DNA from: Trypanosoma brucei
Lineage: Eukaryota
Assembly (NCBI GenBank): GCA_000002445.1
Contig: CH464491.1
Coordinates: 5,024,001 to 5,088,000, forward strand
Direction of reading: 5' to 3'
DNA: 64,000 bases
Positions 1,842 to 62,592 of the stretch are shown here, in pieces (position 1 is the first letter of the stretch; the number at the start of each line of letters is the position of its first letter). Under the pieces are notes generated by a model that made no database searches, was not told where the DNA came from, and saw only the letters and a program-made list of their open reading frames with translations. A program made the position numbers and the translations under genes.

Positions 1842-1856
1842 GTGTTAAAATATATA
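1842..1856 (-). promoter_or_regulatory. VSG 3'UTR 16-mer element (for the C-terminal fragment at 1990-2230)
   Basis: GTGTTAAAATATATA on the plus strand is the reverse complement of the conserved VSG 3'UTR 16-mer TGATATATTTTAACAC. Confidence 0.7.
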
Positions 1857-1989
1857 AAATATTAGGAGTTTTATCCAAATATCAAATTAAATAAATTATC
1901 TTATAATCGTTATAGTGCTATAAAATTCATAAAGACAACATCTATGAAAGCCAATTTTTTATTAAAAAGGAAACTGCCATTTCGGCTCT

Positions 1990-2230
1990 TTTCTCTTTCT
2001 TAGTCATATTCACCCTATTTGCCTTTTTTCCAGCCGCAATTCTTTTTATCATCCTTTGTTTTCGTCCTCACAAGCTTGTTGATTAGTGCCACGTTGGGTA
2101 CCCTTTTCTTTTCTTCCCATATTTTCCTTCTCCTTTTCCTGCTTTGTCTGCTTTTTCTGTTTCCTTTTTGCCTTCCTCACTCAATGTGCACTTTTCACCA
2201 TCTTTGCCATCTTTGTTAAAAACACGCCCC
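1990..2230 (-). pseudogene. VSG: VSG C-terminal-domain fragment (no N-terminal domain, premature stop)
   Basis: Minus-strand translation gives ...KDGKDGEKCTLSEEGKKETEKADKAGKGEGKYGKKRKGYPTWH and ...KNCGWKKGK*, which resembles the VSG CTD motif HCGWKGENS of the neighbouring gene. The CTCAATGTGCACTTTT block is shared with copies at 33950 and 58640. Confidence 0.55.
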
Positions 2231-2528
2231 TGGAAGTTTAGCGGCACTAGCTTTCGGATGCCAGCGGCAGATGAGGCAGTCGTTCCTTAACTACCAAATG
2301 TGATAATCTCCTGCTTTAAAATAACCCTATTTTTACATTATTTCCTTTTGAAAGCAAATTGTTTTGTGCAACGAAACTGCCACGCGCCAGCGCTTTTTAA
2401 AAAATTTTAAAGCCGTGCTCAGCGCAAAATTCAGAGCTGAAATTCACATAAACGAAAAAAATTTTCAAAATGTGATAGCGAGGTATAGACTAAGAATACA
2501 AAGACGAAGATTCTTGAAGTTTGAAGAA

Positions 2529-2541
2529 GGTTTAGGGTTTA
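2529..2541 (+). repeat. Telomere-like G-strand hexamer/heptamer remnant (GGTTTAGGGTTTA)
   Basis: Direct read. It lies about 70 bp from a C-strand remnant at 2610-2623 in the opposite orientation. Confidence 0.4.
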
Positions 2542-2609
2542 CGTAAAAAAGAGCCGCTGATTCATTAAAAAAGTGGCGAATTAAAAAAAATTAATTAAAA
2601 AATTAATAA

Positions 2610-2623
2610 CCCTAACCCTAACA
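2610..2623 (-). repeat. Interstitial telomeric repeat remnant (CCCTAA)2 on plus strand, TTAGGG on the gene strand
   Basis: Plus strand reads AACCCTAACCCTAACA. A second degenerate copy, CCTAACCCTAAA, is at 2795-2810. Confidence 0.6.
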
Positions 2624-2908
2624 CTTTTTAGCCTATTTTTCTTTCTTCCTTTTTTATTTCATTTTTAATAGAACTTTGAGAATCAATTACAAAATTCCCT
2701 AAAAGTTTTGATTCTTTTTAAAAATTTAAAAAAAAATAAAAAATAAAGAAGATCAAAAAAATAATCCAAAATTTGTGAAAACTCAATAATAAAAAACCTA
2801 ACCCTAAAAGTTCAAAACATTCAAAAATAAAAAAATGAGAAATTTTTTAGCTATCAGAAATTTTTTTTACAGAATCAGACAACCAAAAAAATTCTCGGTC
2901 GAATTTAG

Positions 2909-2942
2909 GTGTTAAAATATATCAGAAGTTTTCAAGTAGCAA
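2909..2942 (-). promoter_or_regulatory. VSG 3'UTR 16-mer (2909-2924) and 8-mer (2935-2942), with a C10 homopolymer at 2963-2972
   Basis: GTGTTAAAATATATCA and AGTAGCAA on the plus strand are the reverse complements of the conserved TGATATATTTTAACAC and TTGCTACT elements. On the gene strand the order is 8-mer, then 16-mer, as in VSG mRNAs. The G10 run (a C-tract on the gene strand) sits between the stop codon and the 8-mer. Confidence 0.85.
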
Positions 2943-2982
2943 AAATTTCTTTAAAAAATTGAGGGGGGGGGGTGAATTTGTT

Positions 2983-4422
2983 TTAAAAAAGCAAGGCCAC
3001 AAATGCGGCAGAAACCACGCTGAGGGCGAATTGCTTGTCTAGGAGAATAGAGGAATAACGGCATTTATAAGTTCCTTTATCAGATCCATCACTATTTTCT
3101 CCTTTCCAGCCACAGTGTTTTGTTCCACCCTGATTTGCTGCCTCGCACGCCGTCTGGTTTTGAAAGCTGCTGCACACAGGTTTGGAAGTATTATCCCCGC
3201 CTTTCTTTTCTTCTGTTTTTTCTTCTGAGTCTTTTTTCTTAGCTGGTTCGCCTTCTGCTATCTTAGCTTCCTTTTTCATGGAAGCAAGTTGCCTCGCCAA
3301 GGCCTCTGTTAGCTTCCCAATATCTGTTTCAGATTCGAGATGCAGACCTTCTGATGTTTTATCTTTGTTTATTTTAGGCTTAAGGTTGTTGATTTTTTTC
3401 CACAGTCGCTCCTCAAATTTGCTGCCGCCTTCACCATATGCCGCTTTTATGGAAGCATCGAGCAGACTTGGTGGCGTCGTCATCGTGTCTTCTGAGTTTT
3501 CCAGTCCTGGTAAGGATCTGACTAGTTGCCTTTTGAATAAGTCGCTTGTTGCTACGGCGTTGTAGTCGTTTGCTGTAGATGAGCAATGCTTCTGTTTGAA
3601 GTGATCTAGTAGTAGTTTGTTTGCGTCATTAGCATTGGTTATATTAGTTTTCAGGACGTCGCTGGCCACCGCATATTTTAGATCTGCATTGGCTCCATCG
3701 CCTGACCAGGCTGTTGCTTCGTTTGATTGTACCGCGCTGCCGATTTTGATTATCGAATTGAACGTGAGTTTGCCTGTGTCTTGGGTTATCCCTGTGCTTA
3801 CACAGTTAGTGTTGCCGCCGCCGTGCTTACAATTTATTGTTACTTCTGTTATTGGAGTCAGCTCGGGCAGTAACATGTTTTCGGATTCGTTCGTGGGGTC
3901 AAATTTTGTCCTTTCCTCGGTCAGCTGTACCTTTGCGCATTCGTCTGGCATGGCGGTGCCTGCTGTTTTTGTTGTTAGTGACGTCGCAGTGAACTGGCCT
4001 GCCCCCGTTCTCGCCGTTAACTCTGTTTTGCCTCCGGCCTGGCTGAGTTGTTCGATTAGTGTTATCGCTCGGGCCGCAGTTGTTAGTTTTGGCTCATGGT
4101 CGGCCAGTAATTTGCGGCCTGCCTGTGCCGCAGCTCGGCAGGTTTGAAATATTTCGCCTGTCGCAGCTAAAGCTGGTAACGATTTGCTCTTTAGATCATC
4201 GTCGCCGGCTGTGGCGGCAATCGTTAGTTTTAAAATCTGGTCTGTCATAAGCGCCAGATTAGCCTCTGCTCGTTCCTGTTCCTCTGTATAAAAAGCCAGG
4301 GCGTTGTGCAGCCGCATCGCGCACTCGCAGCCGCTGTCGCACTTCACCGCTTTTGACGCGCTTGTTTTGTAGGTTGTAATGCACAGTGCCGCTATCCAGC
4401 TTGCGGCAAGTGCGGCAGCCAT
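2983..4422 (-). CDS. VSG: Variant surface glycoprotein, intact 479-aa ORF (a-type N-terminal domain; C-terminal GPI signal ...SSILLDKQFALSVVSAAFVALLF)
   Basis: A single ORF with an N-terminal hydrophobic signal (MAAALAASWIAALCITT), a Cys-rich C-terminal domain (HCGWKGENSDGSDKGTYKCRYSS) and a hydrophobic GPI-addition tail. The 16-mer and 8-mer 3'UTR elements follow. Confidence 0.9.
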   Translation of the reverse strand: MAAALAASWIAALCITTYKTSASKAVKCDSGCECAMRLHNALAFYTEEQERAEANLALMTDQILKLTIAATAGDDDLKSKSLPALAATGEIFQTCRAAAQAGRKLLADHEPKLTTAARAITLIEQLSQAGGKTELTARTGAGQFTATSLTTKTAGTAMPDECAKVQLTEERTKFDPTNESENMLLPELTPITEVTINCKHGGGNTNCVSTGITQDTGKLTFNSIIKIGSAVQSNEATAWSGDGANADLKYAVASDVLKTNITNANDANKLLLDHFKQKHCSSTANDYNAVATSDLFKRQLVRSLPGLENSEDTMTTPPSLLDASIKAAYGEGGSKFEERLWKKINNLKPKINKDKTSEGLHLESETDIGKLTEALARQLASMKKEAKIAEGEPAKKKDSEEKTEEKKGGDNTSKPVCSSFQNQTACEAANQGGTKHCGWKGENSDGSDKGTYKCRYSSILLDKQFALSVVSAAFVALLF

Positions 4423-6190: not shown

Positions 6191-7011
6191 TTATTTGTTA
6201 TATGTGTTATATTATTTTATTCATCATTTTAAAGGAACACAGCGCTTATACATACTAAATGTTATATCAACAGGAATAGTAAAACTCTCAAGAGACCGAA
6301 TTCCATGACTTACTATACTTTTACAATTTGAGGTTATTATAGGAAAAATTAGAAAAGTTCAATAAATATGTTCAGTTGTAACATTATTGTATTTATTTAA
6401 GGAATAAGTGTTTACATAAATAATCAATTTCTTTATACTATTACTGTGTGACTTATGAAGGGTGAATTCTCAGAAAATACATCTTTTGCTTAAGCATGCA
6501 TCTACGGATTTGGTTTTAGTATATAGCTGTAGCTGTAGCTTTAGCTTAGACCGCACTCTACATGTGTGCCATAATTTCTTGCATTATTCACATTTTTTCT
6601 CTATGGAGTGTTGTAGAAAATGTTTTATTTAGTTGTACTACTGAGTTCCTAGATGCTAAGTCTTTTATTACATTCCTATGACAGCTACCTAGATGTTCGT
6701 TAAAGCCATGAAACCAGCATCAACGTGGCTTTGTGGAGTAATATAAGTGATTCTTTGAACAACATACCCACTCTATTTTTCTTGAACATCCGTTCCTGTT
6801 TTTCCCGCATCTTCCTTTCAACAATTTCCTCGTGTTCAATTACGCCCATCATTACATTATGCTCGAAGCTGCACCTGTACCATCTCCATCTCCCTCTGTC
6901 TTCTTCACTCAGCTACTGTTCACATTACTTACTTACTTTTGTTGAACCTTTGCACCTTCGCAACTGGTTTACTTGCTTCTACTTTACCTTTCCATTCCAT
7001 CTTCACCACCG

Positions 7012-7228
7012 CTATCATTATAATATTCGTATATACACACACTTACAACACTCTCCTATCATTATTATTATCATTATCATTATCATTAATATTATTATTA
7101 TTGCTCTTATTATAATATTTGTATATACACACTCACAACACTCTCCTATTATTATCATCATCATTATTATTACTGCTCTTATTATAATATACGTATATGC
7201 ACACTCACAACACTCTCTTAACATTGTG

Positions 7229-7260
<32 letters not shown>

Positions 7261-7320
7261 CATTTTTATTATTACTATTTTTATTATTACTGTTGTTATC
7301 ATTACTATTTTTATAAACAT
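7012..7320 (-). repeat. 70-bp repeat array (3-4 tandem units plus long TAA/TTA tract)
   Basis: Three consecutive copies of (C)TTATTATAATAT(T/A)(C/T)GTATATACACACTCACAACACTCTCC, then about 110 bp of ATT/ATC triplets. This is the longest 70-bp block in the window. Confidence 0.9.
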
Positions 7321-7589
7321 AACTTATATTAATAAAATGAACAAAATAAAGCACAGCATAAAATTAGAATGGCTCTCATTTTTCATACTCTGTTACAACA
7401 TTATGTTACATCCGTAGGCAACTTTTACACCAAAATTTTATATTCTTTAGATTTTCAGATACTCAAAAAATTTGCACTGATTTAAACATTTTCATCAAAA
7501 AGTGTTAACATATATCAGATAATAGTAATTCTCTCAAAGTAGAAAGTGTCATAAATTCCACTAATTGGAAAAAATTTATTAATATGCTG

Positions 7590-10719: not shown

Positions 10720-10810
10720 TCTTATTATAATATTAGTATATACACACCTGAAACCCATCATTATCATTATTAATATCATAGTTATTATCATTGATTTATT
10801 ATTATAACCT
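10720..10810 (-). repeat. 70-bp repeat (one unit plus TAA-rich tract)
   Basis: CTTATTATAATATTAGTATATACACACCTGAAACCCATCATTATCATTATTAATATCA... Confidence 0.8.
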
Positions 10811-11068
10811 TAACTCCTAATATCCGGAAGGTAAGCTTGGTGAACGAAGCAAAAAACTGTCGAAATAGCACTTACTCTTCTTACCTTATATCCACCATAC
10901 TACTTTACACCCATATGTCACTATCATACAAATTTTACCACAATTTTTAAATATTTATCCAATTCTCAAAAGTATCACTAATTTGCACATTTTTTACAAA
11001 AATATTGATATATATCAAATTTTAGTAAATTTCAATAAATTCTCTCAAAATAAAAAATTTCATAATTT

Positions 11069-12562
11069 TCATAAATTTATAAAATCGAGCAAAAATGCAA
11101 GCAATAGAGGCACCTTGTGAATGACAAAAGAATTGCTTCCTGTGGTGTTTGTGGTTCCGGTTTTGCTATCTTTCTCTCCTCCCTCTACTTCCTTTTTGAC
11201 AAAATACGTATCCTTTACGCACTTTTTATTTTCTCCCTCGCCGGTGAGTTTGCAGCCATCTTTGCAATCGTCTCCTGTTTTTTTACTGCATTCTTTGTTT
11301 TCCTCTTGTATTCCCCCATTGGTAGAGCAGTCTTTTGCTGGTTCTGACGCGACTGTTCTATCCGCCTTAGCTTTTAGTTCGGGGATGGCGATTAATAGCG
11401 CGGTTGTTATTTCTGGTGGGTCTGTTAGTGTTTCGATCTTAACTTCTTTGGGTTTTCCGCCATCTATTTTTTTCACCTTTAGCTTATTCACTTGGTTGAC
11501 TCGTGCGGTCGAGGCGGCGTTATCGTCTTTGACTGCCTGTCCTATCAAGCTTCTGGCTGCTTGATCGGCCATAGTGTTAGTGACTTTGCCGAGCTTTATG
11601 AGTAAATCTTTGACTTCGGCTTTTATGGTGGTTGTTGTAAGGGCTTCTGATATTGCCTTTTCTGTTGTTTCTGGGCATGTGCTCTCGGGAAGTTTCATTA
11701 CTTTGCCGATGGCGGTGAAGAGCTTTTTGGCTGCCGTGGCGGAGTCGGGTGCTTGGTAGTCTGTGCCTAGTGCATTTGCCACTGCTATTGTTGCTGTCGC
11801 TCCTGAACCTGTGTGGGGTGATACTGTGATTAGGTCTGCGCCTACCGTGGCTGGGGTAGCGCTGCCGCTGTACTGCCATAGCGCCGTGTTGTCCGCGTTG
11901 GATCCCAGCATAAAGGCGCAGACGTTGTTTCCTGTGGCGTCTTGCAGTTGCGTCGGCCCAGAGTATTTCGCTAATCCTTTGTTAGTTATTTCGCTGCTGT
12001 CTAGGTTTAGCTTCGGTGCGTATTCGTCCGTTATCGTTGTCGGGCATCCGAATTCTGCTGGCGATGTTAGTTTCGTGGTTCTTGTATTGGCCTGTGTTAT
12101 GCACTTTCGCGCCGTGTCGCTCTTTGTGGTAGCTTGAAGTATCGCCACTAGCTCCGTTAGTCGGCCTGCCACGTGGGCACCGTTTGCTGCCGCCGTCACA
12201 CCCGCTGCTACGTTTCCTGCTGCTTTGGTTGTTGCATCTACTCGGCAGTTCTCTGCTGCTCGAGCCGCTGCTGTGAACAGAATTGTATCGTTTACAGTGG
12301 GTACCACTAGAGCAGCCAGAAGCAATTTGTTTCGGGCTTCGGCCGCCGCCTGCTCTTGCCTGTGTAGCTTCTGCAGGCGGCCGATTGCGACTGCCGCTGT
12401 ATCCTGTATTGCCATGGCCGTGCCGCATAGCTGTGTTATTTTGGCTTCGTTGAACCCGTTGGTTGATGGCTTTGCCAATCTTAAGATGGTCGTGAAGCAC
12501 AGTGTTAGAAGGGTCACTGTGTGCGCGGACAGACGCTGTTGCTCTCCCGAAAATGGAAGCAT
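11069..12562 (-). CDS. VSG: Variant surface glycoprotein, intact 497-aa ORF (C-terminal ...TTGSNSFVIHKVPLLLAFLL...)
   Basis: Single long ORF. It has a signal-like N-terminus (TVTLLTLCFTTILRLA) and a VSG CTD with a GSNSFVI...LLLAFLL GPI signal. The 3'UTR at 11004-11065 holds conserved motifs (CATAATTTTCATAAATTT, a degenerate 16-mer). Confidence 0.85.
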   Translation of the reverse strand: MLPFSGEQQRLSAHTVTLLTLCFTTILRLAKPSTNGFNEAKITQLCGTAMAIQDTAAVAIGRLQKLHRQEQAAAEARNKLLLAALVVPTVNDTILFTAAARAAENCRVDATTKAAGNVAAGVTAAANGAHVAGRLTELVAILQATTKSDTARKCITQANTRTTKLTSPAEFGCPTTITDEYAPKLNLDSSEITNKGLAKYSGPTQLQDATGNNVCAFMLGSNADNTALWQYSGSATPATVGADLITVSPHTGSGATATIAVANALGTDYQAPDSATAAKKLFTAIGKVMKLPESTCPETTEKAISEALTTTTIKAEVKDLLIKLGKVTNTMADQAARSLIGQAVKDDNAASTARVNQVNKLKVKKIDGGKPKEVKIETLTDPPEITTALLIAIPELKAKADRTVASEPAKDCSTNGGIQEENKECSKKTGDDCKDGCKLTGEGENKKCVKDTYFVKKEVEGGEKDSKTGTTNTTGSNSFVIHKVPLLLAFLLDFINL

Positions 12563-13971
12563 TTGAAGACGCGTCTACTCTGTGAATTTGATAATGGTTG
12601 AGTGGTACTTTTTTAAAAGTTGTGATAAAGGGTATTAAACGCCTCCGGCATTTCTTGGTAGATTTTGTGTTTAAAGTTTGTTTTGAGTTTTTCTCTGCCG
12701 CTTGTCTGTATGTTGTTCACTAGACGCTACAGCTAACTGGTTGAGTTTAGTTTTAAGTTTACTATAAGGGTTGTTGCTGTTGATTTTTGTTTCTGTTCCT
12801 TATTTCTTTGTTATAAATCCCACAAAATTCTTTGACATCGCTGGCTGACGCTCTTTTTATACTTGTGGTTTATTTTTTCCTTGTAATATTACGCCTAAAG
12901 TATTGAGGCGCTACTATGCACTGTTAAGATCTTGTTCTGTCACGTAAATTACCTTACAAAAACAACATATTCCGCCACCCACGACCATCCCCCCTATATT
13001 CTCCTCTACATTCTATGGAAAAGGTCCTTAATTTTATATATTTCCATTTCAAATCACTATAGTCAAATCTCTACATGACCATCTCCCTCATTACAAGTTT
13101 TTCAACTAATCAAATTGCTTTGCGTATTCATGTTTGACTGAAAAACAGTGTTTCCACTTATTTTTATTTCATCTATCATCTTCTTCATATCCAATCCCAC
13201 GTTTACTTGAATAATGAATACCCTTCTATTTCTAAAACATTTTAACACTTATAGGATCTATTCTTTTTCACCTGCCGTTAATCTTGTGCTGACACATCTA
13301 TGTTCATAATAATATAACTTTTCTGCTTTGTACGTATTCATAATTCTAACTCTAAATCCTTTGAAACCTGACTGATATTAGTTTGATTTCTTTTTAATGC
13401 CAACACTTTCGTGTCTGCGCGCAAATTTGCCGAATACCTAGCCTGCTTCATGCGATCCATCAACTGCGAATCTCCTTTAATTCTAATGTAAATTATTGGA
13501 GGCGTAAACTTCACCAATTTTTATTTGTATACTAATACAAAATTGAGGGTTTATCGGCGCTAACTATGTGTATCTCACAGATCTCATTTAAAGATTCATA
13601 CATCATATTTCTTATACATTTACTTCCTTTTCCAGTTTCCCTATAGGGAGCGGCTTCTGCTGTTTTATTTAATATTTATCTTTCTTCTTTATATTCTTCT
13701 GTTATTGCTTCTGCGTACGGCATAGCAACTATATTTGTCTTGTGCACTGCATTCTAATCCTCTCAAATTGTCCCCTTCTCTCTTTCTGCATGGAGATAGA
13801 CTTATTATGCTTCTGTTTAAACCTCCGTATATCATAATTTCATTCCTTCTTTCTGTCTTTCCGAGTGCCTTTAAATATTATCCCTATTGTCATTTATTTC
13901 CCTTACTCACTTACCTAGACTGTATCCTTGTCTTTGTTTTAAGTGCTTCTATTTTTTTCGTCCATTTAGTT

Positions 13972-22617: not shown

Positions 22618-24307
22618 GAAAAAGGTATTATTAGGGCTGGGTATGTCCTGAGAATAATTTGCTTATAAGAACATTTGTAAATTTTCATCATCTTTAATCC
22701 TCACATGTAAAAATCTCCTCCATTTCCTCTATTATTCTACGAATGTAAGAACGCCGGAGCACTTTGTGATTAATCCGTGCTTTCTAGTTTTAATTCTTAA
22801 TATATGGACTTTCCAACAGATTAAATAGCCCAATTACAACCAGGTATGATGTTATATCTACAAACTTTTGTTTAAAATGCGGCTATTCTTTTAAATATTT
22901 TTGTACTTCCCACCTTAAATCTTCAGTTCATTTGTGATCGGCAGTTCTAGCCGCGCTTACAATTCAGCTTTATATTTTATTTGATTTGTCTTCATTTGCT
23001 GCATGAACACTCCAAGCATTTTACGGATGTTGCTGCTGCCTTTTTTGGATACTTTTTATACTTGGAAGTTACATTCTAGCGTTTCTTCCATTTGCACTAT
23101 TTTTTTGGCTCTATGCTGATACTTATTTTGTTTTTTGGATAGTAATTTCACAGGAAGTTGTAAAGGGGTGGGGTACTCCTAGGAATTGCTGTACTTTACT
23201 TTTTTCTGTTTGTTATTATGGAATAGTTTCACCATTCTAAGTCACGTCAACTCTAATCTTATAAATCAGCCATTTAAGTTGTTTGATCATCCCTTTATAA
23301 CGTCTATTCTATAAAAAAACAAAAAAATCACTGCTATCTAATAACTTTTTCACGCTGTTTCCCTATAAGAAACGCTAAGACTCACTGTATCTACACCCTT
23401 TTCTGAAAGTAAAAAAATCTTTATTTCTTTTACTCCTTTGGTGTTTTGTGGCATTCTTCTACTTGTTGTGGTTCTTTCTAAATTTGCTTCTGACTTATAA
23501 ACTTTCAGCAAGGTTGGGTGCAGTCGTTGCCTGGTTTATTTACCTCTAATTTCACGTTTTTGTTCCTTTTGATACGAAACACATCTTTAGACGAAATTTA
23601 CAACATTTATCAATTGAATTTTTGTATTATTTTCCTGCATATCCATAATATCGCTTTGAGTAATAAAAACGCATTCTTTAGAGAATTCGTTGAAGAAAAT
23701 TGTAAATTATGCTTTTAGTCGTCTTCAAAATACACTATTTTTTTGGTTTAGTTGTAGCAGCTTCATTTGGGCTATGAATAACCTATCTCACTTTCTTTTT
23801 TATCCACTCATAATTATATTTAAGTACGATAACTCCCATCGTCGTGCTTGTGTATCAAACGTTCTACATTCAATTCTTATTCACTCTCTTTATCCGTCCT
23901 TTAGCATTTTCCCTAATATTTCACGTGCTGCTCCACTTACTCTCTTGTTTAGTTTTAATTCTCGCTTATTCACTTAGTCTCATTGAACAATCTCTATTTT
24001 TTTTAGTTCTTCTATTTTAATGGGAATTTAGTATGCACTATCTATCTTATAATATTAGCAATCGCTCACTCATAAAACTCAATTACCATTATTTTAATAA
24101 CCATAAGTAACTACCAATATTCATAAAATAAACAAAGAAAACAAATAGAAAATTAAAATAGCACTCGTTTTCAATACACTTTCACACTATTAATTTGGAC
24201 CAATAGGCCACGTACATACCAAAGTTTCAGATTTTCAATTCCTCAAATTAAAAAAAAATTACCAAAATTAACAATATTAACAAAATTAACAAAAGTGTTA
24301 AAATATA

Positions 24308-33370: not shown

Positions 33371-33460
33371 ACAATATTATAATATTTGTATATACTCACT
33401 CACAACACACTCCTATTATTGTCATTATTATTGCTACTATCATTATCCTTATAATTACAG
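33371..33460 (-). repeat. 70-bp repeat
   Basis: CAATATTATAATATTTGTATATACTCACTCACAACACACTCCTATTATTGTCATTATTATTGCTACTATCATTATCC. Confidence 0.85.
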
Positions 33461-33779
33461 CTACGACTCTAACTTGATATCCATAAAAAATGGGAAATGA
33501 ACTAAATTAATATATTACTTATTTTAATATACAATTACCCTCCTACATTCCACAGACAGTCCTCTATAATACAAATGTTTTACAAGTTCTTATTTTTTAA
33601 AAATTTTAATGAATTACACGTTTTGCAAGTTAGAAGTTAAAAAGTGTTAATATATATAACAAATTTTATAAAACTTCAAAAAATTATCTCAGAACAAAAA
33701 AATCATAAATTTAATAAAATTGAGCAAATATCCTTCGAATGATCGAATGCTACCAAACTTACAAAAGCAACAGGCATCA

Positions 33780-33960
33780 GAGCTAATTTCTTATTGAAAA
33801 TAAAACTGGAATCCTTGCAGTCTTTTTCATACTATTAACAGTTGCTGCCCTTTTCACAAGCTTGTCGATTAGTGTCATGTCTGGAACACTTATCTTTCTT
33901 CTCATCTTCCCCTCCTTCTTTCGCTTCTTCTTTTTATACTTTTTTTATGCCATCCTCACT
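33780..33960 (-). pseudogene. VSG: VSG C-terminal-domain fragment (module copy 2)
   Basis: It shares the CTCACTCAATGTGCACTTTTT block and upstream flank with the fragments at 1990-2230 and 58440-58700. GTGTTAATATATATA (16-mer-like) is at 33644-33658. Confidence 0.5.
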
Positions 33961-34247
33961 CAATGTGCACTTTTTATCGTCGTTTCCTTTGGGATTGAAA
34001 ATGCGCCCATGACAGTTGAGCGGCTTTAGACGTCTGCTGTCAGGGGCAGATCTGGAAGTCATTCCTTAACTGCTGATCGTAATAATCTCCTAGTTCCGAA
34101 TATCTCTCTTTTTAGATTATTTTTCATTTAAAAGCTATTCGTTTCGCGCAGCTACACTGGCATGCGTCAGCGTAAAAAAAGCCGAATGCACCGCAAAGAA
34201 AAACCTGGCAAATTATAAAAAAGCCAAAAAAAGTAAATTAAAACCCG

Positions 34248-34288
34248 AAACCTAACCCCCTAACCCTAACCCTAACCCCAACCCTTTT
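34248..34288 (-). repeat. Interstitial telomeric repeat remnant, about 6 degenerate CCCTAA units on plus strand
   Basis: CCCGAAACCTAACCCCCTAACCCTAACCCTAACCCCAACCC. A weaker CCTAACACTAAAACCTA is at 34389-34406. Confidence 0.7.
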
Positions 34289-34570
34289 TTTCTCTTTTGT
34301 CGGTCCTATTTCTGTTCGGGCAGATTGTTCAAAAACTTAATTAAATTCGTTACCTCGGCCCAAAACAAAAATTAATTAAAAATAAAAAACCTAACACTAA
34401 AACCTACAAAAATCAACAGGAAAAAGGAGAAAAAATTTAGCAATCATCAAAAAAATTTGGTAGGCTCAGGTAGCCAATATATATATATATGTATATAACG
34501 ATTTCTCGGAGATTTTAAAGGGGTTAAAATATATCAAATAGCAAAGTTCGTTTAAAAATAGGGGAATTTT

Positions 34571-36086
34571 TTAAAACAGCAAGGCCATAAAAGCAGAAAA
34601 CACGTGAGGAACAGAAACTCTCAAATTTCTAGAAAACGATTTTTCATCTTTCTTTTTGTTTTCAGCTTTTGGAAAGCATTTAGGGTCTTTTTTATCATCA
34701 AAATCACAGCCTTTTTTATCTTTGCAGGGTTTCACTTGTTTTATGCTTTTTGCATTCATCTGCTGATTTGGCTGGTTCTGTTAATTTGTCTGTGTTTGTG
34801 GGACATGAGGGACTTTCTTGTTTTTTCTTCTTGACTTCTTGTTCGTTAATGAAACGGCGAACAGTGTAACATGTTGCTGCATCTGCGAGTTCTTTGGGGT
34901 TGGTTATTGTTTTCAGTTGTCTGTCGCCATTGCCGCCTACGGCGGCTTTTGGTGGTGTCATGTCGTCAAGCGACTTTCCTACAGCGTTTTTAATTTCGTC
35001 TCCATTTTCACCGATGACTTCCTTTAGTAAGTTATCCACTTTGGTTTTCGTGGCATCGGCGTACTTGGCGCCTTCGCCGTCTATGGCTTTCGCTAATTGT
35101 TCTTTCAGCCTCGGCGCCATTATCAGTGCTTTTATATCCAATGTTGCCGACAGTGTGCCTATCGCTGCTGCAGCGTCTTCTAGCTTGGCTATAGCTGCTG
35201 CTGCTGCTGCAATAGTTTTTTTGTTGGGGATCGCGGTAGCTTCCGAGCTGTCGGAGTATTTGCTGTCGCTTGCGTCAGTTTTACGTGTAAGCGTTATTGT
35301 TGCTTTGTCAAAAATCTTGCCGCCCTTTAAGGCTAGCACTGTGCTTGCGCCGTTGCTGCAGCCGTTGTTGGCTCCGTATTTCTGCCCGTTCGTCCCTGCG
35401 GCTGCGCAAAGTGTGAGCTCTGCGTCTGCTGCTGGTGGCGGCATATCTCTCGCTTTCAGCCCAATCAACACCAACTTATTTGTGCCTTGTTCATTTTGTG
35501 CGTGGCTACCTGTATGGTCTTCGTTCGTCCCGTCGGCTTTTTTGCATGTGCCGTGTCGGTTTGGTGTCAGCTTGGGTTTTGCCTGAAGATTCGTGCCGTT
35601 CGCGTACGTGCTTACTGCTGTGACAAAGTTTGTGGATTCTATTTGCGTGTTGCTGAGCTCTGCAACCGCTAGCATTTGTCGTTCTAGTTGTGCTGCTGCT
35701 GTTGTTCCTGCGTTTATAACGGCTGCTTTTCTTTTTACTGAGTTTAATACTTCACCAGCTGATTTTAAAAGAGACACCGCTAACAGCTTGGCTGTCAGTG
35801 CCTTCGCCCCTGTCTCTGTGCTCGTTACGGCGGGCAATTTTGTTGCTTTTGCGGTTGCCTTTTCCGCGTTATCAATTGCTGTGCTGATCAAGGCTTGGGC
35901 ATTGGCTGCAATATCTCCCAAATAGTATGCTGCGTGGCACGAGGTTGTTACTGCTGGTCTTTTGCGGTGTAATGCGGTAGCTACAGGCATTGCTGTTAAA
36001 GCAAAGATTAGTATTAACGCTTGCGGGGTTCGTTCTATCTTTACTATGGTGTCGGCCTTGCCATATTGGACGTTACTGCTGGTCAT
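34571..36086 (-). pseudogene. VSG: VSG pseudogene with a single frameshift near its 3' end (paralog of the intact VSG at 55190-56644)
   Basis: 456-aa ORF 34716-36086 ends ...SADECKKHKTSETLQR*. The following 62-aa frame, 34571-34759, continues ...KGCDFDDKKDPKCFPKAENKKKDEKSFSRNLRVSVPHVFSAFMALLF. The intact VSG at 55190 has the same CTD uninterrupted (SADECKKHTTEQACKGEKGCDFDEKKDPKCFPNKK...). GGGTTAAAATATATCA is at 34521-34536. Confidence 0.8.
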
Positions 36087-55189: not shown

Positions 55190-56644
55190 TTATGCTAGAA
55201 GCAAAACTGCAAGCAAAGGAAGAGCGTTGATTACAATAGATCTTCTCCCTGTTGAGGTTGTAGACACTTTTTTATTTGGAAAGCATTTCGGGTCTTTTTT
55301 CTCATCAAAATCGCAACCTTTTTCACCTTTGCAGGCTTGCTCCGTTGTATGCTTTTTGCATTCGTCTGCTGATTTTTTCGGTTCTTCTAGTTTGCCTGTT
55401 TTGGTTGGGCAAGAGGGGTTTTCTTGGTTTTTCTTTTTTTGCTCTTCCTCGTCGATAAAATTTTTGATAGTGTAATACGTCGCTGCTTTTGACAGCTCCT
55501 CAGGGGCGTTTATTGAATCAAGTTTTTTAGCGCCGTCTGAGCCTGCTGCTTTACTTGGCTGAAAGGTGTTCAGTAATTGGGTTATTTGTGTTTTGATTGA
55601 GTTTCTTTCTTTGCCGAAAAGTTCTTCGGTTGTGTGTTTAACTTTTTCCTTTAAATTTGGTTGCTCGGCTGTCGCTTCGTGGCCTCCCAAAGCTTTGGCT
55701 ATTGCGTGCCCTGCGGAAGCGGCATCAAAGGCGCTTTCAATGGTAGCAGGTGGTGTTATCGTGCCGAGTTGTGTTGCAGCGTGAACCATTTCAAGTACCA
55801 GCGCAAGTTCTGCTTTTATTGTCGCTTTATTGGGCGTCGTCGCATCGTCGCCGATTTCGTTGTAGGCAAGCGGGGCCGAGTCGCCTGTTGTGTGGGCAAC
55901 TGCTACCGTTGCCGTGAATACTTGCCCTCCTTTGAATCCTATGTTAGTTGCCTGGGTTGAAGTGCAGCTTGCCGTGTTTGGTGCGCCGCTGCTGACCGAG
56001 TTGCTGCCGCATATTGTTAGGTAGGTGCCGAGCGCGCTTCCTGGTGGTGTTGGTGTCACTGTCACTATCGTTATGGCGTTTTTGTGGTCTGCATTATGAT
56101 CGTCGGTGCTCGAGTCCTTTTCCCTGCTGTCGTCCTGTCCGACACAATGAGCTTTAAGAGCCGCGTCCAGCTTGGGCTTGAGTTGGCCTTTTGTCGCTGT
56201 CGCCGTGCTTGTCGTGGCTGTGGCCATATTTAGATCTTGTAGGTGCAGCTGTGAGAGTCTGCTGATTGCTTCCTGGCTCCCTGCGAGCCGGCTCAGCGCT
56301 TCGATGCCTTTTAATAACGCTGGGGTATTTGCGGCTAGCTTATCGTTTGCTTCTGCGGCTTTTTGAATATAAATTGAGCGCAGATAAGCTGCTGCCCAGC
56401 CCGCGTTTGTGTTAACACCGTTGGCGATGACGTCAGGCTTAGAAGCTGTAGTCAGCATCGTCTTGACAGCTTCTTGTGTGGATGTGATTTTGGTCCTTGC
56501 GGAGTCCGCCATCTGCCGCAGCTGCGTTGCTACGTCGCATGCGCTTTTAGCCTTTTTTGTTGGTGTTTTTACAGCTGAAGTTGTTACAACTGGTAGGCAA
56601 AGGGCTATGCTTACGAAAGTCAATGCCTTGAAGTTTGCCAACAT
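55190..56644 (-). CDS. VSG: Variant surface glycoprotein, intact 484-aa ORF
   Basis: N-terminal signal MLANFKALTFVSIALCLPVVTTSA. CTD ...SADECKKHTTEQACKGEKGCDFDEKKDPKCFPNKKVSTTSTGRRSIVINALPLLAVLLLA. It is a paralog of the frameshifted gene at 34571-36086. Confidence 0.85.
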   Translation of the reverse strand: MLANFKALTFVSIALCLPVVTTSAVKTPTKKAKSACDVATQLRQMADSARTKITSTQEAVKTMLTTASKPDVIANGVNTNAGWAAAYLRSIYIQKAAEANDKLAANTPALLKGIEALSRLAGSQEAISRLSQLHLQDLNMATATTSTATATKGQLKPKLDAALKAHCVGQDDSREKDSSTDDHNADHKNAITIVTVTPTPPGSALGTYLTICGSNSVSSGAPNTASCTSTQATNIGFKGGQVFTATVAVAHTTGDSAPLAYNEIGDDATTPNKATIKAELALVLEMVHAATQLGTITPPATIESAFDAASAGHAIAKALGGHEATAEQPNLKEKVKHTTEELFGKERNSIKTQITQLLNTFQPSKAAGSDGAKKLDSINAPEELSKAATYYTIKNFIDEEEQKKKNQENPSCPTKTGKLEEPKKSADECKKHTTEQACKGEKGCDFDEKKDPKCFPNKKVSTTSTGRRSIVINALPLLAVLLLA

Positions 56645-58017: not shown

Positions 58018-58082
58018 CTTAACATAATATTTGTATATACACACTCTCACAAAACTCTTCTATTATTATTACTATTATCATC
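58018..58082 (-). repeat. 70-bp repeat
   Basis: CTTAACATAATATTTGTATATACACACTCTCACAAAACTCTTCTATTATTATTACTATTATCA. Confidence 0.85.
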
Positions 58083-58439
58083 TTTAATATGTATTACAGC
58101 AAAAAATGAATTAAAAGAGTAAATAAGTGTAACCCTAATTTTTTATACACTATGATAATAGTATCGTGAAGGTGTTGGACACAGTAAAACACTTTCATAC
58201 ATTACATATTTTTTAAAAATTTCATTCTTTCAATATTTAAGAAATTTTGCAAAGTTTCATCAAAAACGTGTTGCAATATATCCAATGTTAGCAAATTTAG
58301 TAAATTCTCAAAAAATGTCCAAGTTTCATAAGGTTTATTCGTTTTATAAAATAAAACAAATATCCTTATAATAATAAAATGCTATAAAATGTACAAAAGC
58401 AGCAGCCATACTTAGAGCCGATTTCTTATTGACGAGAAA

Positions 58440-58700
58440 CTGGAAGAGTGGAATTTGAAACTTTTATCACCTCAACTTGCATCATCTCCTTTCCAGCCAC
58501 AAAATTTGTTTTTTCCTACTGGTTTGGGACTGTATGCCGCCTCACATTCCGTATGTGCATTAGGATCAGCACATGTCTTTCCATTCTTATTTTTCCCATC
58601 ATTCCCTCCTTCTTAGTTTGCTTCTTTTTCTACTTTCTTCTTGATTTCCTCACTCAACGTGCACTTTTTGCAGTCGTCGATTTTCGGTTTGAAAACGGAC
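58440..58700 (-). pseudogene. VSG: VSG C-terminal-domain fragment (module copy 3)
   Basis: It shares CCTCACTCAACGTGCACTTTTTGCAG and the following GTTGAGCGGCTT flank with copies at 2200 and 33950. The 16-mer-like GTGTTGCAATATATCCA is at 58268-58284. Confidence 0.5.
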
Positions 58701-59002
58701 CTCTAGCAGTTGAGCGGCTTCAGCTGTTGGGTTCCAGCGACAGATTGTGTAGCCGCTCTTTGATTTCTAATTTTGATAATTGGCCATCCCCCAAATGTTA
58801 GTATTTTTTCCTTATTTCCCCTTTAAAAACAAATCGTTTCGCGCGGCGAAACTGCCACCCGCCAGCGTATACCGAAAGATTTAGGCCGCTCGCAGCCCAA
58901 AACTCAGAATTTAAATTCATAAAAGCTCAAAAAGTTAAATCGAAACAAGCTGCTAGTGATGTAGATTCGGCTAATTTAAACAAGGATGTTTGCTGCGTGA
59001 AT

Positions 59003-59016
59003 AAGGGTTAGGGTTG
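59003..59016 (+). repeat. Telomere-like G-strand remnant (AAGGGTTAGGGTTG)
   Basis: Direct read. It lies about 100 bp from the C-strand array at 59117-59181, in the opposite orientation. Confidence 0.55.
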
Positions 59017-59116
59017 TCATAAAAAAAAAGATCCGCTTCATCATTAAAATTTAAAAAAACTAAAGTCACAACGCTTCACTGCTAGTAAAAAAACTTACTA
59101 GTAAGAGGAGAAATAA

Positions 59117-59181
59117 CTCTAACCCTAACCTTCCTAACCTCCCTAACCCTCCATACCTCTCCCTACCTACCGCCTACCCTC
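59117..59181 (-). repeat. Interstitial telomeric repeat remnant, about 9 degenerate CCCTAA-like units on plus strand
   Basis: CTCTAACCCTAACCTTCCTAACCTCCCTAACCCTCCATACCTCTCCCTACCTACCGCCTACCCTC. Confidence 0.7.
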
Positions 59182-59349
59182 TTTTTTGGTTTGTTAGACA
59201 AAAAACAACAAGAAAATAAAAGAAATTTTTTAACTATCAAAAACAAAATTTTACACGCACAGACGGCCAAAAAAAAATATTCCCGGGAAAATTACGTGTT
59301 AAAATATATAAAAATCTCAGAAAGAAAAAAAGAGGGGGAAAAATTTGTT

Positions 59350-60876
59350 TTAAAAAAGCAAGGCCACATATGCGGCAGAAACCATCATGGCGAATTGTTT
59401 GTTTCCTAGAATAGAGGAATCTTTGCATTTATCCTCAATCCATCCACAATAAGCTTTTTCACCAGGTTTTTTGTCCCTCATTCTCCTTTTCACAGTTTGC
59501 TTTATCTTTATGTTTTGTACACCTCTCTGAAGCAGTATTTGTTTCTTTTTTTGAGCTTGTGCTACAGGAACGCCGGTTGCTGTCGCTTTTTTTGGCATCA
59601 AATTTACATTTTTTGGTTTGTTCGGTTTCTGTTGTATTATAACTGCATATAGGATTTGCGTTACATGCAGCAACTTCTGTTAGTTTGCTTCAAGTTTCTT
59701 CTGCTTTTTTACGCCTAAGAACCCTCTGAAAGTTCCTTGTGGTAATCTGGAGCTTTTTTGTTTGCTTTTTTGTTTAAAATTTGTAGTTTCTTTTCTTCCT
59801 TGCGAGCTAGTTGCTGATAGTCTAGCTGCATGGTTAGCTGTAGGTCTATTTGGCCACGTGTCGGAGCTAGTGCTTTGTCCCCTTTAAGAGCTTTTACGAA
59901 GCCACTGTCGCTGCCGTTGGCTGGTATTTTGAAAAGCTCGGTTGCTATTTTCTTTATGTCGTTTTCTTCTTTGGCGGGCTTGTATTGGTAGAAAGAGTTT
60001 ATTGTGTCTTTGAGCTTTCTACCTACTGCGTCCGGTTTCAATAGCTTCTCTAGTCCGTCGGCGTCGAGCGTTTGCGCTGTATCGGTCGCAGACAAGTAAT
60101 TATGTGTTGCTGTGTAAGACGATGCTATCGGCTTGAGTATATCCGTCTCCGTTGCTGCTTTTTCGATGTTGTTTGTTGCAAAGCCCCCGGTGTTTGCTAT
60201 TTCTATTAAACCTTCCAGCAGCAGCATGTTGCCGGTATCCTTTTTGTAAGCCGTTAGGACAGCTGCGGTTAAAGCACAGCTGTTTGCTGTTGCTCCCGTC
60301 AGGGCGGTCGAAGCTGAGAACACTTGAATTGCCGCCTCTTGTAAGTTTGTGGCGTCGGGGATTTCGGCTGTTAAGTCAGTGGCTTTGCAGCCATTGCTAG
60401 CCGCTTCGTTTGACTCCGTATTTGGCTGTGTGCGTGCTGAAATACAGAAGCCGTTAGATGGGTTTGTGCGCTGCGCATTCTTGAACAAGAGCATTAGTTC
60501 GTCTATTCTGCCACTTGCGTAAGAGACTTGGCCTGCAGCCTTTACGGCTGCTGTCATTTTTGAAGTGGGTTCAGTTAGGTGTCGGTCGCCTTCGCCTTGC
60601 AGGTAGGCTGCCAGTATCAGAGGTTGCGTTGCCCATCCCGGTGATTTCACTGCACATGCAGTTAGCCTTGCTGTAGCAGCGTTGATTACTTTCAGATAGC
60701 TAGCTGTGTTTGACAGCTTTAGCCGCGTTCCGAGCTGCGGCTTTTTTTGCTTTAGCAGAGAAATCGCAAGTTTTCTGTGCAGCGGCACTGCTTAGTGCAT
60801 CACCTGCACTGGCTGAGCCCTCGTGTGCGTTAATGTACACTAGTCAAAATAGTGTAAGGCCTGTTCTAATCATGTT
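59350..60876 (-). pseudogene. VSG: VSG pseudogene (frameshift between NTD ORF 59715-60788 and CTD ORF 59350-59673; stop in signal peptide)
   Basis: CTD ends ...KAYCGWIEDKCKDSSILGNKQFAMMVSAAYVALLF. The NTD is 357 aa. An upstream Met at about 60874 is followed by a stop (MIRTGLTLF*). The 16-mer GTGTTAAAATATATA is at 59297-59311. Confidence 0.75.
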
Positions 60877-62222: not shown

Positions 62223-62592
62223 TTCTATTACAATTTTAATTTCAACTAATAACTATACAGTAAACAAAATTAACAAATCTACAATAGAACTTTTTATACC
62301 ATATCACCCTTCTGCTTTACACCCATAGGACACTTTCATACACACTCTTTCAAATTTTATATTTAAACATTTTCGTTAAAAAGTGTTAAAATATATCAAA
62401 TTTTAGCAATTTTAGGAAAATCTCTCACAAAGAAAATATTAATTATTTTTATAAGTTTCATAAAATCAAGCAAAAATTCTTAGAATGCTTAAAATACTAT
62501 CAAGCCCATAAATACAGCGGCCATACTCAGAGCCAATTTCTTATTTACAAGAAAAGTGAAATTCTTGCAAGTTTCATCTTTCCATTAACAGC

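What the first reader, a model, noticed from the sequence alone, without database searches (positions are those of the whole stretch)
59003..59181. Head-to-head telomere-repeat remnants (G-strand then C-strand on the same strand) in module copy 3
The plus strand carries AAGGGTTAGGGTTG at 59003-59016, then a roughly 100-bp A-rich conserved spacer, then about 9 degenerate CCCTAA units at 59117-59181. The two telomeric blocks are therefore inverted relative to each other. Copy 1 has the same arrangement (GGTTTAGGGTTTA at 2529-2541; CCCTAACCCTAA at 2610-2623). A simple captured telomere would give one orientation only. Inverted blocks are what a telomere-telomere fusion junction or a fold-back, palindromic repair intermediate would leave. 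Yet the flanking VSG pieces are in the same orientation, so the history is more complex than a simple chromosome-end fusion.
Basis: seen in the sequence. Interest (0 to 1): 0.6.

Follow-up and report, generated by a model that had tools for sequence, protein, structure and literature searches.

The report
Relic telomeric VSG flank inside array
The oppositely oriented telomere-like blocks are real, but they are inherited parts of an old, repeatedly copied piece of DNA that normally lies between a trypanosome surface-coat (VSG) gene and the chromosome end, not the scar of a chromosome-end fusion at this spot.

Summary
The window is a Trypanosoma brucei VSG array with its genes on the minus strand. 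All 10 near-perfect telomere 12-mers in 64 kb lie in three roughly 1-kb modules (0.16 expected).

Read on the VSG sense strand, each module runs: VSG 3' end, 16-mer UTR element, degenerate TTAGGG tract, AT-rich spacer, a 12-13-nt inverted CCCTAACCCT block, about 310 bp of module-specific sequence (X), a VSG C-terminal fragment, a second UTR, and 70-bp repeats.

The TTAGGG-like tract is the known mark of telomere-proximal VSGs. The inverted block is the conserved 3' end of an AT-rich unit that also occurs in two T. equiperdum assemblies, in one of them in tandem 3' of a VSG at a contig end. It is never longer than two hexamers. Copy 2 lost it by a roughly 150-bp deletion. Beyond the telomere units there is no palindrome or fold-back.

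Copy 1 is 95-97% identical in an independent assembly, so this is not an assembly artefact.

Verdict: a fossil telomeric VSG flank that became internal and was duplicated with the array. In-situ fusion is not supported. Interest is modest.

The parts
59349..60873 (-). A-type VSG pseudogene (frameshifted) whose 3' end opens module copy 3
   Evidence: Pfam Trypan_glycop on ORF 59715-60788. The three-frame translation shows the N-terminus and the C-terminal domain in a different frame from the middle, ending ...QFAMMVSAAYVALLF* with the stop at 59349-59351.
59296..59311 (-). VSG 3'UTR 16-mer element (TTATATATTTTAACAC, 1 mismatch)
59117..59181 (-). Degenerate TTAGGG-like tract. It reads as G-strand on the VSG sense strand, which is the natural polarity 3' of a telomere-proximal VSG.
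   Evidence: It aligns with the TTAGGG tracts of L001 and L004. The literature reports TTAGGG-like repeats 3' of telomere-proximal VSGs (PMC3708902).
59017..59116 (-). AT-rich spacer. The part next to the inverted block (about 59017-59068) belongs to the conserved unit. 59081-59102 is a hairpin private to copy 3.
   Evidence: Alignment A2. The nhmmer hit spans 58995-59066.
59003..59016 (+). Inverted telomere block AAGGGTTAGGGTTG. On the VSG sense strand it reads CAACCCTAACCCTT and forms the 3' end of the conserved unit.
58690..59002 (-). Module-specific sequence X. The first ~95 nt are homologous to the post-block sequence of a second T. equiperdum unit. It contains the conserved CGCTGGCG(G/C)GTGGCAGTTTCGC and a 7-bp/3-nt hairpin at 58836-58852.
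   Evidence: Within 113 kb sampled it is found only in module copies.
58340..58689 (-). 5'-truncated, degenerate VSG C-terminal-domain fragment (…KKCTLSEE…FLVNKKSALSMAAAFV…)
   Evidence: Translations. tblastn homology to full-length VSGs starts only at the C-terminal domain.
58268..58283 (-). Second, degenerate 16-mer UTR element, belonging to the C-terminal fragment
   Evidence: repeat family D10.
58018..58097 (-). 70-bp repeat that opens the next VSG cassette (VSG 55190-56644)
   Evidence: Repeat family D1; Pfam.
2068..3068 (-). Module copy 1. It holds the 16-mer at 2909-2924, TTAGGG-like blocks at 2794-2808 and 2606-2625, the inverted block at 2529-2541, X, the C-terminal fragment and a second 16-mer at 1842-1857.
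   Evidence: It is 95-97% identical to T. b. equiperdum L001 11331-12027.
33854..34600 (-). Module copy 2. It holds the 16-mer at 34521-34536 and TTAGGG-like blocks at 34387-34401 and 34242-34286. The inverted block and about 150 bp are deleted between TTTTTTTACG and CTGACGC.

Best explanation
The region is a fossil of the DNA that normally lies between a telomere-proximal VSG gene and the telomere. It is now stranded inside a subtelomeric VSG array.

On the VSG sense (minus) strand the order is:
- VSG 3' end
- 16-mer UTR element
- about 110 bp of conserved flank (about 115-290 bp in copies 1 and 2)
- degenerate TTAGGG tract
- an AT-rich unit that ends in ...GCAGCGGCTCTTTTTTTTATGCGGAC-CCTAACCCT-TATTC

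The 'inverted telomere block' is the last 12-13 nt of that unit. It came in with the flank and was not created here.

The flank became internal when it was joined to, or copied onto, sequence X plus a 5'-truncated VSG C-terminal fragment, followed by a normal array of 70-bp repeats and VSGs in the same polarity. This step is inferred, and would be a telomere-capture or break-induced-replication type event.

The resulting ~1-kb composite was then duplicated with the array. There are 3 copies in 64 kb at 67-72% identity, and different VSG N-terminal regions lie upstream. Copy 2 later lost the inverted block by a ~150-bp deletion.

Shown: the anatomy, the homology among copies and across subspecies, the unit structure, and the absence of a palindrome. 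Inferred: the capture step and the order of events. The ultimate origin of the inverted dodecamer inside the unit predates all sampled copies and is unresolved.
For: - Organism and layout: Pfam VSG domains on minus-strand ORFs; 70-bp repeats; the closest proteins are T. brucei or T. equiperdum VSGs.
- Telomere 12-mers occur only in the three modules: 10 hits against 0.16 expected. Only 3 of 15 minus-strand 16-mer sites are followed by such tracts.
- The three copies align over about 1 kb, from the VSG 3' end to the C-terminal fragment.
- Independent assembly: in T. b. equiperdum CM010675.1, locus L001 11331-12027 is 95-97% identical to copy 1 and has the same order, including AAACCCTAAACC.
- A second, divergent unit follows in L001: degenerate TTAGGG, AT spacer, then GCGGACACTAACCCTTATTCGC.
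- In L004 (T. equiperdum OVI) a VSG is followed by a TTAGGG-like tract and repeated units carrying ATGCGGACCCTAACCCTCC twice. Then come (TTAGGG)5, the same spacer, and the end of the contig.
- Alignment A2 gives the unit consensus.
- Hall et al. [quoted passage not shown]
- In bloodstream expression sites the VSG-to-telomere distance is 200-1590 nt (PMC2567434), which is compatible with such a flank.
Against: - No true chromosome end could be read. L004 stops inside the repeats and contains runs of N, so 'telomere-proximal' is inferred for it.
- Only about 113 kb of trypanosome DNA from three genomes was sampled.
- The primary description (Aline & Stuart 1989) could not be read, so it is unknown whether the inverted motif is part of the published organisation.
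- The capture junction (X to C-terminal fragment) is the same in all three window copies. It therefore documents one event at most, and X could simply be more flank.
- In L001 the VSG points away from the nearer contig end, so the relic is not in its original orientation relative to that end.
Confidence: 0.7

Rival explanations
1. In-situ head-to-head event. Either two telomeres fused at this locus, or a break was healed by telomerase on both ends and the ends rejoined. This left a TTAGGG tract facing a CCCTAA tract.
For: - The two blocks are in opposite orientation and far closer together than chance allows.
- A break, heal and rejoin history would keep the flanks collinear, as observed (inference).
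Against: - The inverted arm is 12-13 nt and at most 2 hexamers in all instances.
- A homologous non-telomeric spacer of 68-100 bp separates the arms.
- The block has conserved sequence on both sides and recurs in other VSG flanks in other genomes, including in tandem.
- The event would need to have happened identically several times.
Confidence: 0.07
2. Ancient fusion or fold-back fixed in a repeat unit. An old head-to-head or fold-back repair event at an ancestral telomere created the TTAGGG-spacer-CCCTAACCCT arrangement once. It then became a subtelomeric repeat unit and spread. This concerns only the ultimate origin of the motif and is compatible with the best explanation.
For: - CCCTAACCCT, an exact 10-mer, is conserved in c3, L004b and L004c and is near-exact in c1, L001a and L001b, inside an otherwise AT-rich unit.
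- Each unit pairs it with an upstream TTAGGG tract.
Against: - No residual symmetry exists outside the telomere units.
- Folding is no better than for shuffles.
- A short inversion, a template switch, or selection for a protein-binding site would leave the same picture.
Confidence: 0.2
3. Functional element. The internal telomere-like tracts and the inverted motif are kept because they act. They could be duplex TTAGGG-binding (TRF/RAP1) or base-J sites that help silencing. They could also provide extended 3' homology with expression-site flanks, so that these array VSGs are copied more easily.
For: - The module is conserved at 95-97% between the window and T. b. equiperdum.
- The motif is retained in diverged units.
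- Modules provide about 300-500 bp of telomere-type flank that other array cassettes lack.
Against: - 95-97% is no more than expected for orthologous neutral DNA between these very close subspecies.
- Copies within the window have drifted to 67-72%.
- Copy 2 lost the motif, and L004a and L004d have it missing or degenerate.
- No functional data were available.
Confidence: 0.12
4. Chance match or assembly chimera.
For: The G-type block is short. On its own, copy 1's block scores at the chance level in a Smith-Waterman scan.
Against: - The shuffle statistics argue against chance.
- The block sits at a homologous position in two window copies and in an independent assembly of another subspecies.
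- The combined motif GCGG..TTTTT..ACCCTAA.CCTT has zero expectation by chance.
Confidence: 0.02

Closest known systems
TTAGGG-like repeats and conserved organisation 3' of telomere-proximal T. brucei VSG genes (Aline & Stuart 1989, as cited in PMC3708902)
   Same: - Position immediately 3' of a VSG, after the 16-mer UTR element.
- G-strand polarity on the VSG sense strand.
- Degenerate hexamers.
- A conserved flank (…TTCCCGG…GATAGCTAAAAAATTTCT…) shared with the T. equiperdum VSG flanks sampled here.
   Different: - Here the flank is internal. It is followed by X, a C-terminal fragment, 70-bp repeats and more VSGs rather than by the telomere.
- I could not read the 1989 paper, so I cannot say whether the inverted CCCTAACCCT motif or the AT-rich unit is described there.
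Head-to-head interstitial telomere fusion sites, such as human 2q13 (from general knowledge, not tested here)
   Same: TTAGGG-type and CCCTAA-type sequence on one strand, facing each other, at an internal site.
   Different: - Fusion sites have two multi-unit arrays that abut directly, flanked by two inverted subtelomeres.
- Here one arm is at most 2 units.
- The arms are separated by conserved non-telomeric DNA.
- The flanking genes are collinear.
- The arrangement is a repeated unit.
Degenerate internal telomere tracts at boundaries of subtelomeric blocks, such as yeast X/Y' junctions and human subtelomeric duplicon boundaries (from general knowledge)
   Same: - Short degenerate telomere tracts in the native polarity mark places where a former chromosome end was extended by captured subtelomeric sequence.
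- They are propagated by segmental duplication.
   Different: - Those tracts are normally in a single orientation.
- Here the block also carries a VSG-specific flank unit with an inverted dodecamer and joins to a truncated VSG C-terminal domain.

Membership tests
Telomere-telomere (head-to-head) fusion junction | Two multi-unit telomere arrays in opposite orientation | tested here: not met
   The VSG-side tract has about 9 degenerate units. The inverted arm is 12-13 nt and never more than 2 hexamers in c1, c3, L001a, L001b, L004b and L004c.
Telomere-telomere (head-to-head) fusion junction | The arrays abut, or nearly so, at the junction | tested here: not met
   A 68-bp (c1) to 100-bp (c3) spacer separates them. 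The spacer is homologous between copies and with T. equiperdum units.
Telomere-telomere (head-to-head) fusion junction | The flanks are two subtelomeres in mutually inverted orientation | tested here: not met
   The VSG and the downstream VSG C-terminal fragment, UTR elements and 70-bp repeats are all on the minus strand.
Fold-back / palindromic repair product | Extended inverted duplication around a short centre | tested here: not met
   The only non-low-complexity inverted pairs are the telomere units themselves, at 10-12 nt. DNA folding gives z = +0.28 and -0.51 against shuffles.
3' flank of telomere-proximal VSG (TTAGGG-like repeat organisation) | TTAGGG-like degenerate repeats 3' of the VSG UTR, G-strand on the VSG sense strand | tested here: met
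   The feature is stated in PMC3708902.
3' flank of telomere-proximal VSG (TTAGGG-like repeat organisation) | Sequence homology to flanks of other VSGs that lead into telomere-type repeats | tested here: met
   L004 6374-6636 and 7347-7494, and L001 12400-12876, align with c3 58907-59286 at 62-66% over 160-290 nt, with E from 1e-6 to 8e-14. Alignment A2 supports this.
3' flank of telomere-proximal VSG (TTAGGG-like repeat organisation) | Lies next to the actual telomere | tested here: not met
   In the window each module is followed by further cassettes: 70-bp repeats at 58018-58097, 33371-33450 and 1540-1706, then VSGs. It is therefore a relic, not a current chromosome end.
Interstitial telomeric sequence bound by telomere proteins | Occupancy by TRF/RAP1 or base J | not testable with these tools
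   This needs ChIP-seq or J-mapping data.

The most novel reading that the evidence does not exclude
The unit of TTAGGG tract, AT-rich spacer and inverted CCCTAACCCT may be a previously undescribed, conserved building block of the T. brucei VSG-telomere junction. If so, its internal copies are datable fossils showing that VSG arrays grew by repeated capture of eroded VSG telomeres. They may still act as telomere-mimicking 3' homology or protein-binding sites that bias which array VSGs are copied during switching.
Probability: 0.15. Interest if true: 0.55.

Novelty: new member of a known kind. Interest (0 to 1): 0.3.

Why it matters
It shows that some cassettes in a silent VSG array still carry the flank of a telomeric VSG: 3 of about 15 VSG 3' ends in this window. 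These are physical records of traffic between chromosome ends and internal arrays, which is how the antigen archive is thought to be built.

It also gives a concrete sequence signature for counting such relics genome-wide: the 73-nt unit ending in CCCTAACCCT, together with X.

It does not reveal a new kind of chromosome rearrangement. A specialist would probably regard the TTAGGG-like tract as expected and the inverted dodecamer as a minor curiosity.

Tried and rejected
- Chance was rejected by shuffle statistics.
- A palindrome or fold-back was rejected by inverted-repeat search and DNA folding.
- An RNA gene in X or the spacer: no Rfam match at E <= 1.
- Homology of X to VSG coding sequence: tblastn finds full-length VSG similarity only from the C-terminal domain onward. 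X is therefore not obviously VSG-coding.
- Further copies of the unit: an nhmmer profile found none beyond the sequences it was built from in 113 kb.
- Other telomere-like tracts in the window: weak hits at 10761-10816, 25061, 37321 and 57041 are at the chance level or lie in 70-bp repeats or coding sequence.
- Exact-protein look-ups of window VSGs found no record, so the source assembly and the ortholog of copy 3 could not be fetched. Look-ups of a Lister 427 expression-site VSG and a T. evansi VSG also failed.
- One protein search with an 85-aa C-terminal domain returned nothing.
- Ten literature searches found no paper describing inverted telomere motifs or interstitial telomere tracts in T. 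brucei VSG arrays.
- Marcello & Barry 2007 and Aline & Stuart 1989 are not held in the library.

Full report
**Context**

The window is a Trypanosoma brucei-type silent VSG array read from its antisense side.
- Ten long minus-strand ORFs were scanned. Eight match the Pfam families for VSG A-type, B-type or C-terminal domains.
- Seventeen copies of the 70-bp repeat lie between the genes (family D1).
- The VSG 3'UTR 16-mer TGATATATTTTAACAC occurs 15 times on the minus strand with up to 3 mismatches. Across both strands, 1.65 such hits are expected.
- The closest proteins are T. brucei (EATRO1125, Lister 427) and T. equiperdum VSGs at 78-90% identity.

Everything below is described on the VSG sense (minus) strand unless stated otherwise.

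**The observation**

- AAGGGTTAGGGTTG lies at 59003-59016 on the plus strand.
- About nine degenerate CCCTAA-like units lie at 59117-59181. TRF calls this tract with period 9/18 rather than 6.
- Copy 1 has GGTTTAGGGTTTA at 2529-2541 and CCCTAACCCTAA at 2610-2621.

The telomere 12-mer AGGGTTAGGGTT with up to 1 mismatch occurs 10 times in the window against 0.16 expected, and no shuffle reached 10. All ten hits fall in three places: around 2.5-2.8 kb, 34.26 kb and 59.0-59.13 kb. The only plus-strand G-type hits are 2528 and 59004, each 68-100 bp from a tract of the opposite orientation. From the expectation, about 0.001 such hits would fall that close by chance.

Three qualifications apply.
- The two inverted blocks are homologous, so they count as one event rather than two.
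- Copy 2 has no inverted block.
- Only the ~45 nt of spacer next to the block is conserved.

**Anatomy**

The three places are copies of one ~1-kb module: c1 at 2068-3068, c2 at 33854 to about 34600, and c3 at 58584-59432. They are 67-72% identical to each other, and homology stops at those limits. On the sense strand the order in c3 is:
1. The last ~100 nt of a VSG, here a frameshifted A-type pseudogene at 59349-60873.
2. The 16-mer (59296-59311).
3. About 110 nt of conserved flank, including GATAGTTAAAAAATTTCT.
4. The degenerate TTAGGG tract (59181-59117).
5. An AT-rich spacer.
6. CAACCCTAACCCTT (59016-59003).
7. About 310 nt of module-specific sequence, which I call X (59002 to about 58690).
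8. A 5'-truncated, degenerate VSG C-terminal-domain fragment (about 58689-58340).
9. A second, degenerate 16-mer (58268-58283).
10. A 70-bp repeat (58097-58018), followed by the next VSG (56644-55190).

The TTAGGG-like tract has the polarity expected 3' of a telomeric VSG. Only 3 of the 15 VSG 3' ends in the window have this type of flank. Two others that I read, at 24295 and 62383, show no telomere-like sequence downstream, and the one at 62383 reaches its 70-bp repeat within about 150 nt.

**Is there a palindrome?**

There is not. Inverted-repeat searches of all three modules return only A/T low-complexity pairs and the 10-12-nt telomere units themselves. Folded as single-stranded DNA, 58995-59190 and 2520-2632 are no more stable than shuffles, with z = +0.28 and -0.51. 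No Rfam family matches.

**Related loci**

Exact-protein look-ups for window VSGs found nothing, but three homologous VSGs led to T. equiperdum contigs.

*L001* is T. b. equiperdum chromosome CM010675.1 (2.37 Mb), a stretch about 55-77 kb from one contig end.
- It carries a copy (11331-12027) that is 95-97% identical to window c1. The order is the same, including AAACCCTAAACC at 11718-11729. The arrangement is therefore not an assembly artefact.
- Directly after that copy's C-terminal fragment and UTR comes a second, much more divergent unit. It consists of a degenerate TTAGGG tract (12520-12625), an AT-rich spacer, and then GCGGCTATTTTGTCATGCGGACACTAACCCTTATTCGC.
- Homology of this second unit to c3 runs from the UTR through to about 95 nt beyond the inverted block (63-66% over 166-291 nt, E from 2e-7 to 8e-14).

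*L004* is a 7.5-kb T. equiperdum OVI contig. After its VSG and 16-mer it reads, in order:
- A TTAGGG-like tract (6512-6570).
- AT-rich DNA with the recurring motif TTTTAGTGATGCAGCGGCTC.
- TTATGCGGACCCTAACCCTCCTCCCC at about 6805.
- CCCTAACCCTCCTCC again at about 7015.
- (TTAGGG)5 at 7347-7379.
- The same spacer again (TAATTCGCCATTTTTT...GCAGTGGCTCTTTTTTTTT...), followed by the end of the contig.

Within L004 the segments 6510-6629 and 7347-7469 align with each other, and the terminal unit aligns with c1, c2 and c3.

**What the inverted block is**

Aligning eight instances (A2) gives this unit: (TTAGGG)n, T/A-rich sequence, TAATTCGCCAyTTTTTT, TTTTAGTGATGCAGCGGCTCTTTTTTTTATGCGGAC-CCTAACCCT-TATTC.

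The state of the inverted motif in each instance is:

| Instance | Motif |
|---|---|
| c3 | CAACCCTAACCCTT |
| c1, L001a | AAACCCTAAACCTT |
| L001b | ACACTAACCCTT |
| L004b, L004c | GACCCTAACCCTCC |
| L004d | degenerate |
| L004a | absent |
| c2 | absent |

In c2 the sequence jumps from ...TTTTTTTACG straight to CTGACGCATGCCAG. That corresponds to a ~150-bp deletion relative to c1 and c3. Independent units outside this module carry the block directly after ATGCGGA, so the deletion reading is preferred over an insertion in c1 and c3.

The block is never longer than two hexamers. It always lies distal to a TTAGGG tract and always has the same orientation relative to the VSG. A profile of the unit found no further copies in the 113 kb available.

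**Interpretation**

The plus-strand CCCTAA tract is the known 'TTAGGG-like repeat' that occurs 3' of telomere-proximal VSGs. This is stated by Hall et al. 2013 (PMC3708902), citing Aline & Stuart 1989. In Lister 427 expression sites, 200-1590 nt separate the VSG from the telomere (PMC2567434), which leaves room for such units.

The inverted dodecamer is an inherited component of that flank. The module is therefore best read as a telomeric VSG 3' flank that became internal and was then duplicated with the array.

How it became internal is inferred, not shown. An eroded VSG telomere may have been extended by joining to, or copying from, a site in another array that begins in X and a truncated C-terminal domain and continues with 70-bp repeats and VSGs in the same polarity. 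The junction is identical in c1, c2 and c3, so this happened once at most for these copies. Parts of X resemble motifs in the T. equiperdum flanks: TTCACGCAGC..CATC.T...TTAAATT, TGTGAATTTCAG and GCGACGCA-like. X may therefore itself be mostly flank.

A fusion or fold-back formed at this locus is not supported, for four reasons:
- The inverted arm is too short.
- The arms do not abut.
- The spacer and both flanks of the block are conserved in unrelated VSG flanks in other genomes.
- There is no further symmetry.

An ancient head-to-head or fold-back event as the ultimate source of the motif inside the unit cannot be excluded or tested with the data available. A functional role, such as telomere-protein binding or extended 3' homology for gene conversion, is possible but has no direct support. 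The copies within the window have drifted to 67-72% identity, and one lost the motif.

**Limits**

- No true chromosome end could be read.
- L004 contains runs of N and ends inside the repeats.
- The 1989 primary paper and Marcello & Barry 2007 are not held.
- Ten full-text searches found no description of inverted or interstitial telomere motifs in T. brucei arrays. That is weak evidence of novelty, since much of the older literature is not in the library.

**Verdict**

The feature is a relic of a known kind of sequence in an internal position, with a small and possibly undescribed conserved inverted motif. Interest is 0.3.

Noticed in passing
window 1842-1857, 33644-33659, 58268-58283 versus 2909, 34521, 59296: Every telomere-type module is followed by a truncated VSG C-terminal fragment with its own second 16-mer UTR element. 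These three cassettes therefore carry two 3' ends in tandem. The other 9 of the 15 minus-strand 16-mer sites belong to neither kind, and the two of them that I read have a plain array-type flank.
   Followed up: partly
L001 (CM010675.1 2288743-2310008, reversed): The T. b. equiperdum ortholog of copy 1 lies about 55-77 kb from a contig end, and its VSG points away from that end. If that end is the telomere, the relic TTAGGG tract points towards the centromere, and it is the short inverted block that has the 'correct' polarity.
   Followed up: no
window 59081-59102: Copy 3 alone has an insert in the spacer that contains a hairpin: GCTAGTAA, then AAAAAC, then TTACTAGT. It accounts for most of the extra spacer length compared with copy 1.
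   Followed up: partly
window 58836-58852: There is a perfect 7-bp stem with a 3-nt loop (GTTTCGC GCG GCGAAAC) inside the most conserved part of X (CGCTGGCG.GTGGCAGTTTCGC). It is imperfect in copy 1 and lost in copy 2, so it is probably not a conserved structure.
   Followed up: partly
window 34477-34497: Copy 2 has a (TA)n microsatellite inserted between the 16-mer and the telomere-like tracts. Copies 1 and 3 lack it.
   Followed up: no
window 2983-4422 (-): This intact 479-aa VSG is 100% identical over 46% of its length to EATRO1125 VSG 1125.4312 but only 78-86% identical to its other relatives. This suggests a mosaic or segmental-conversion relationship. Only its C-terminal domain matches a Pfam family.
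   Followed up: no
window, whole: There is strong strand asymmetry: T is 37% and A is 23% on the plus strand. This is consistent with all VSG cassettes being on the minus strand. Between 39.5 and 55 kb there are no ORFs of 200 aa or more, although 16-mers, a 70-bp repeat at about 41 kb (none detected from there to 55 kb) and C-terminal-domain pieces are present, so this stretch is mostly VSG pseudogenes.
   Followed up: no
window 6725-7417 (+) and 34894-35586 (+): These long plus-strand ORFs overlap the 70-bp/TAA-repeat region or lie antisense to a VSG. They are almost certainly not genes.
   Followed up: no
L004 6805-6850 and 7014-7060: In the T. equiperdum OVI flank the inverted CCCTAACCCT is followed by long C-rich runs (CCTCCTCCCCCCCCCCCC...CCCCACGCAC). 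The window copies lack these. Part of this region is masked by N, so the assembly there is uncertain.
   Followed up: no
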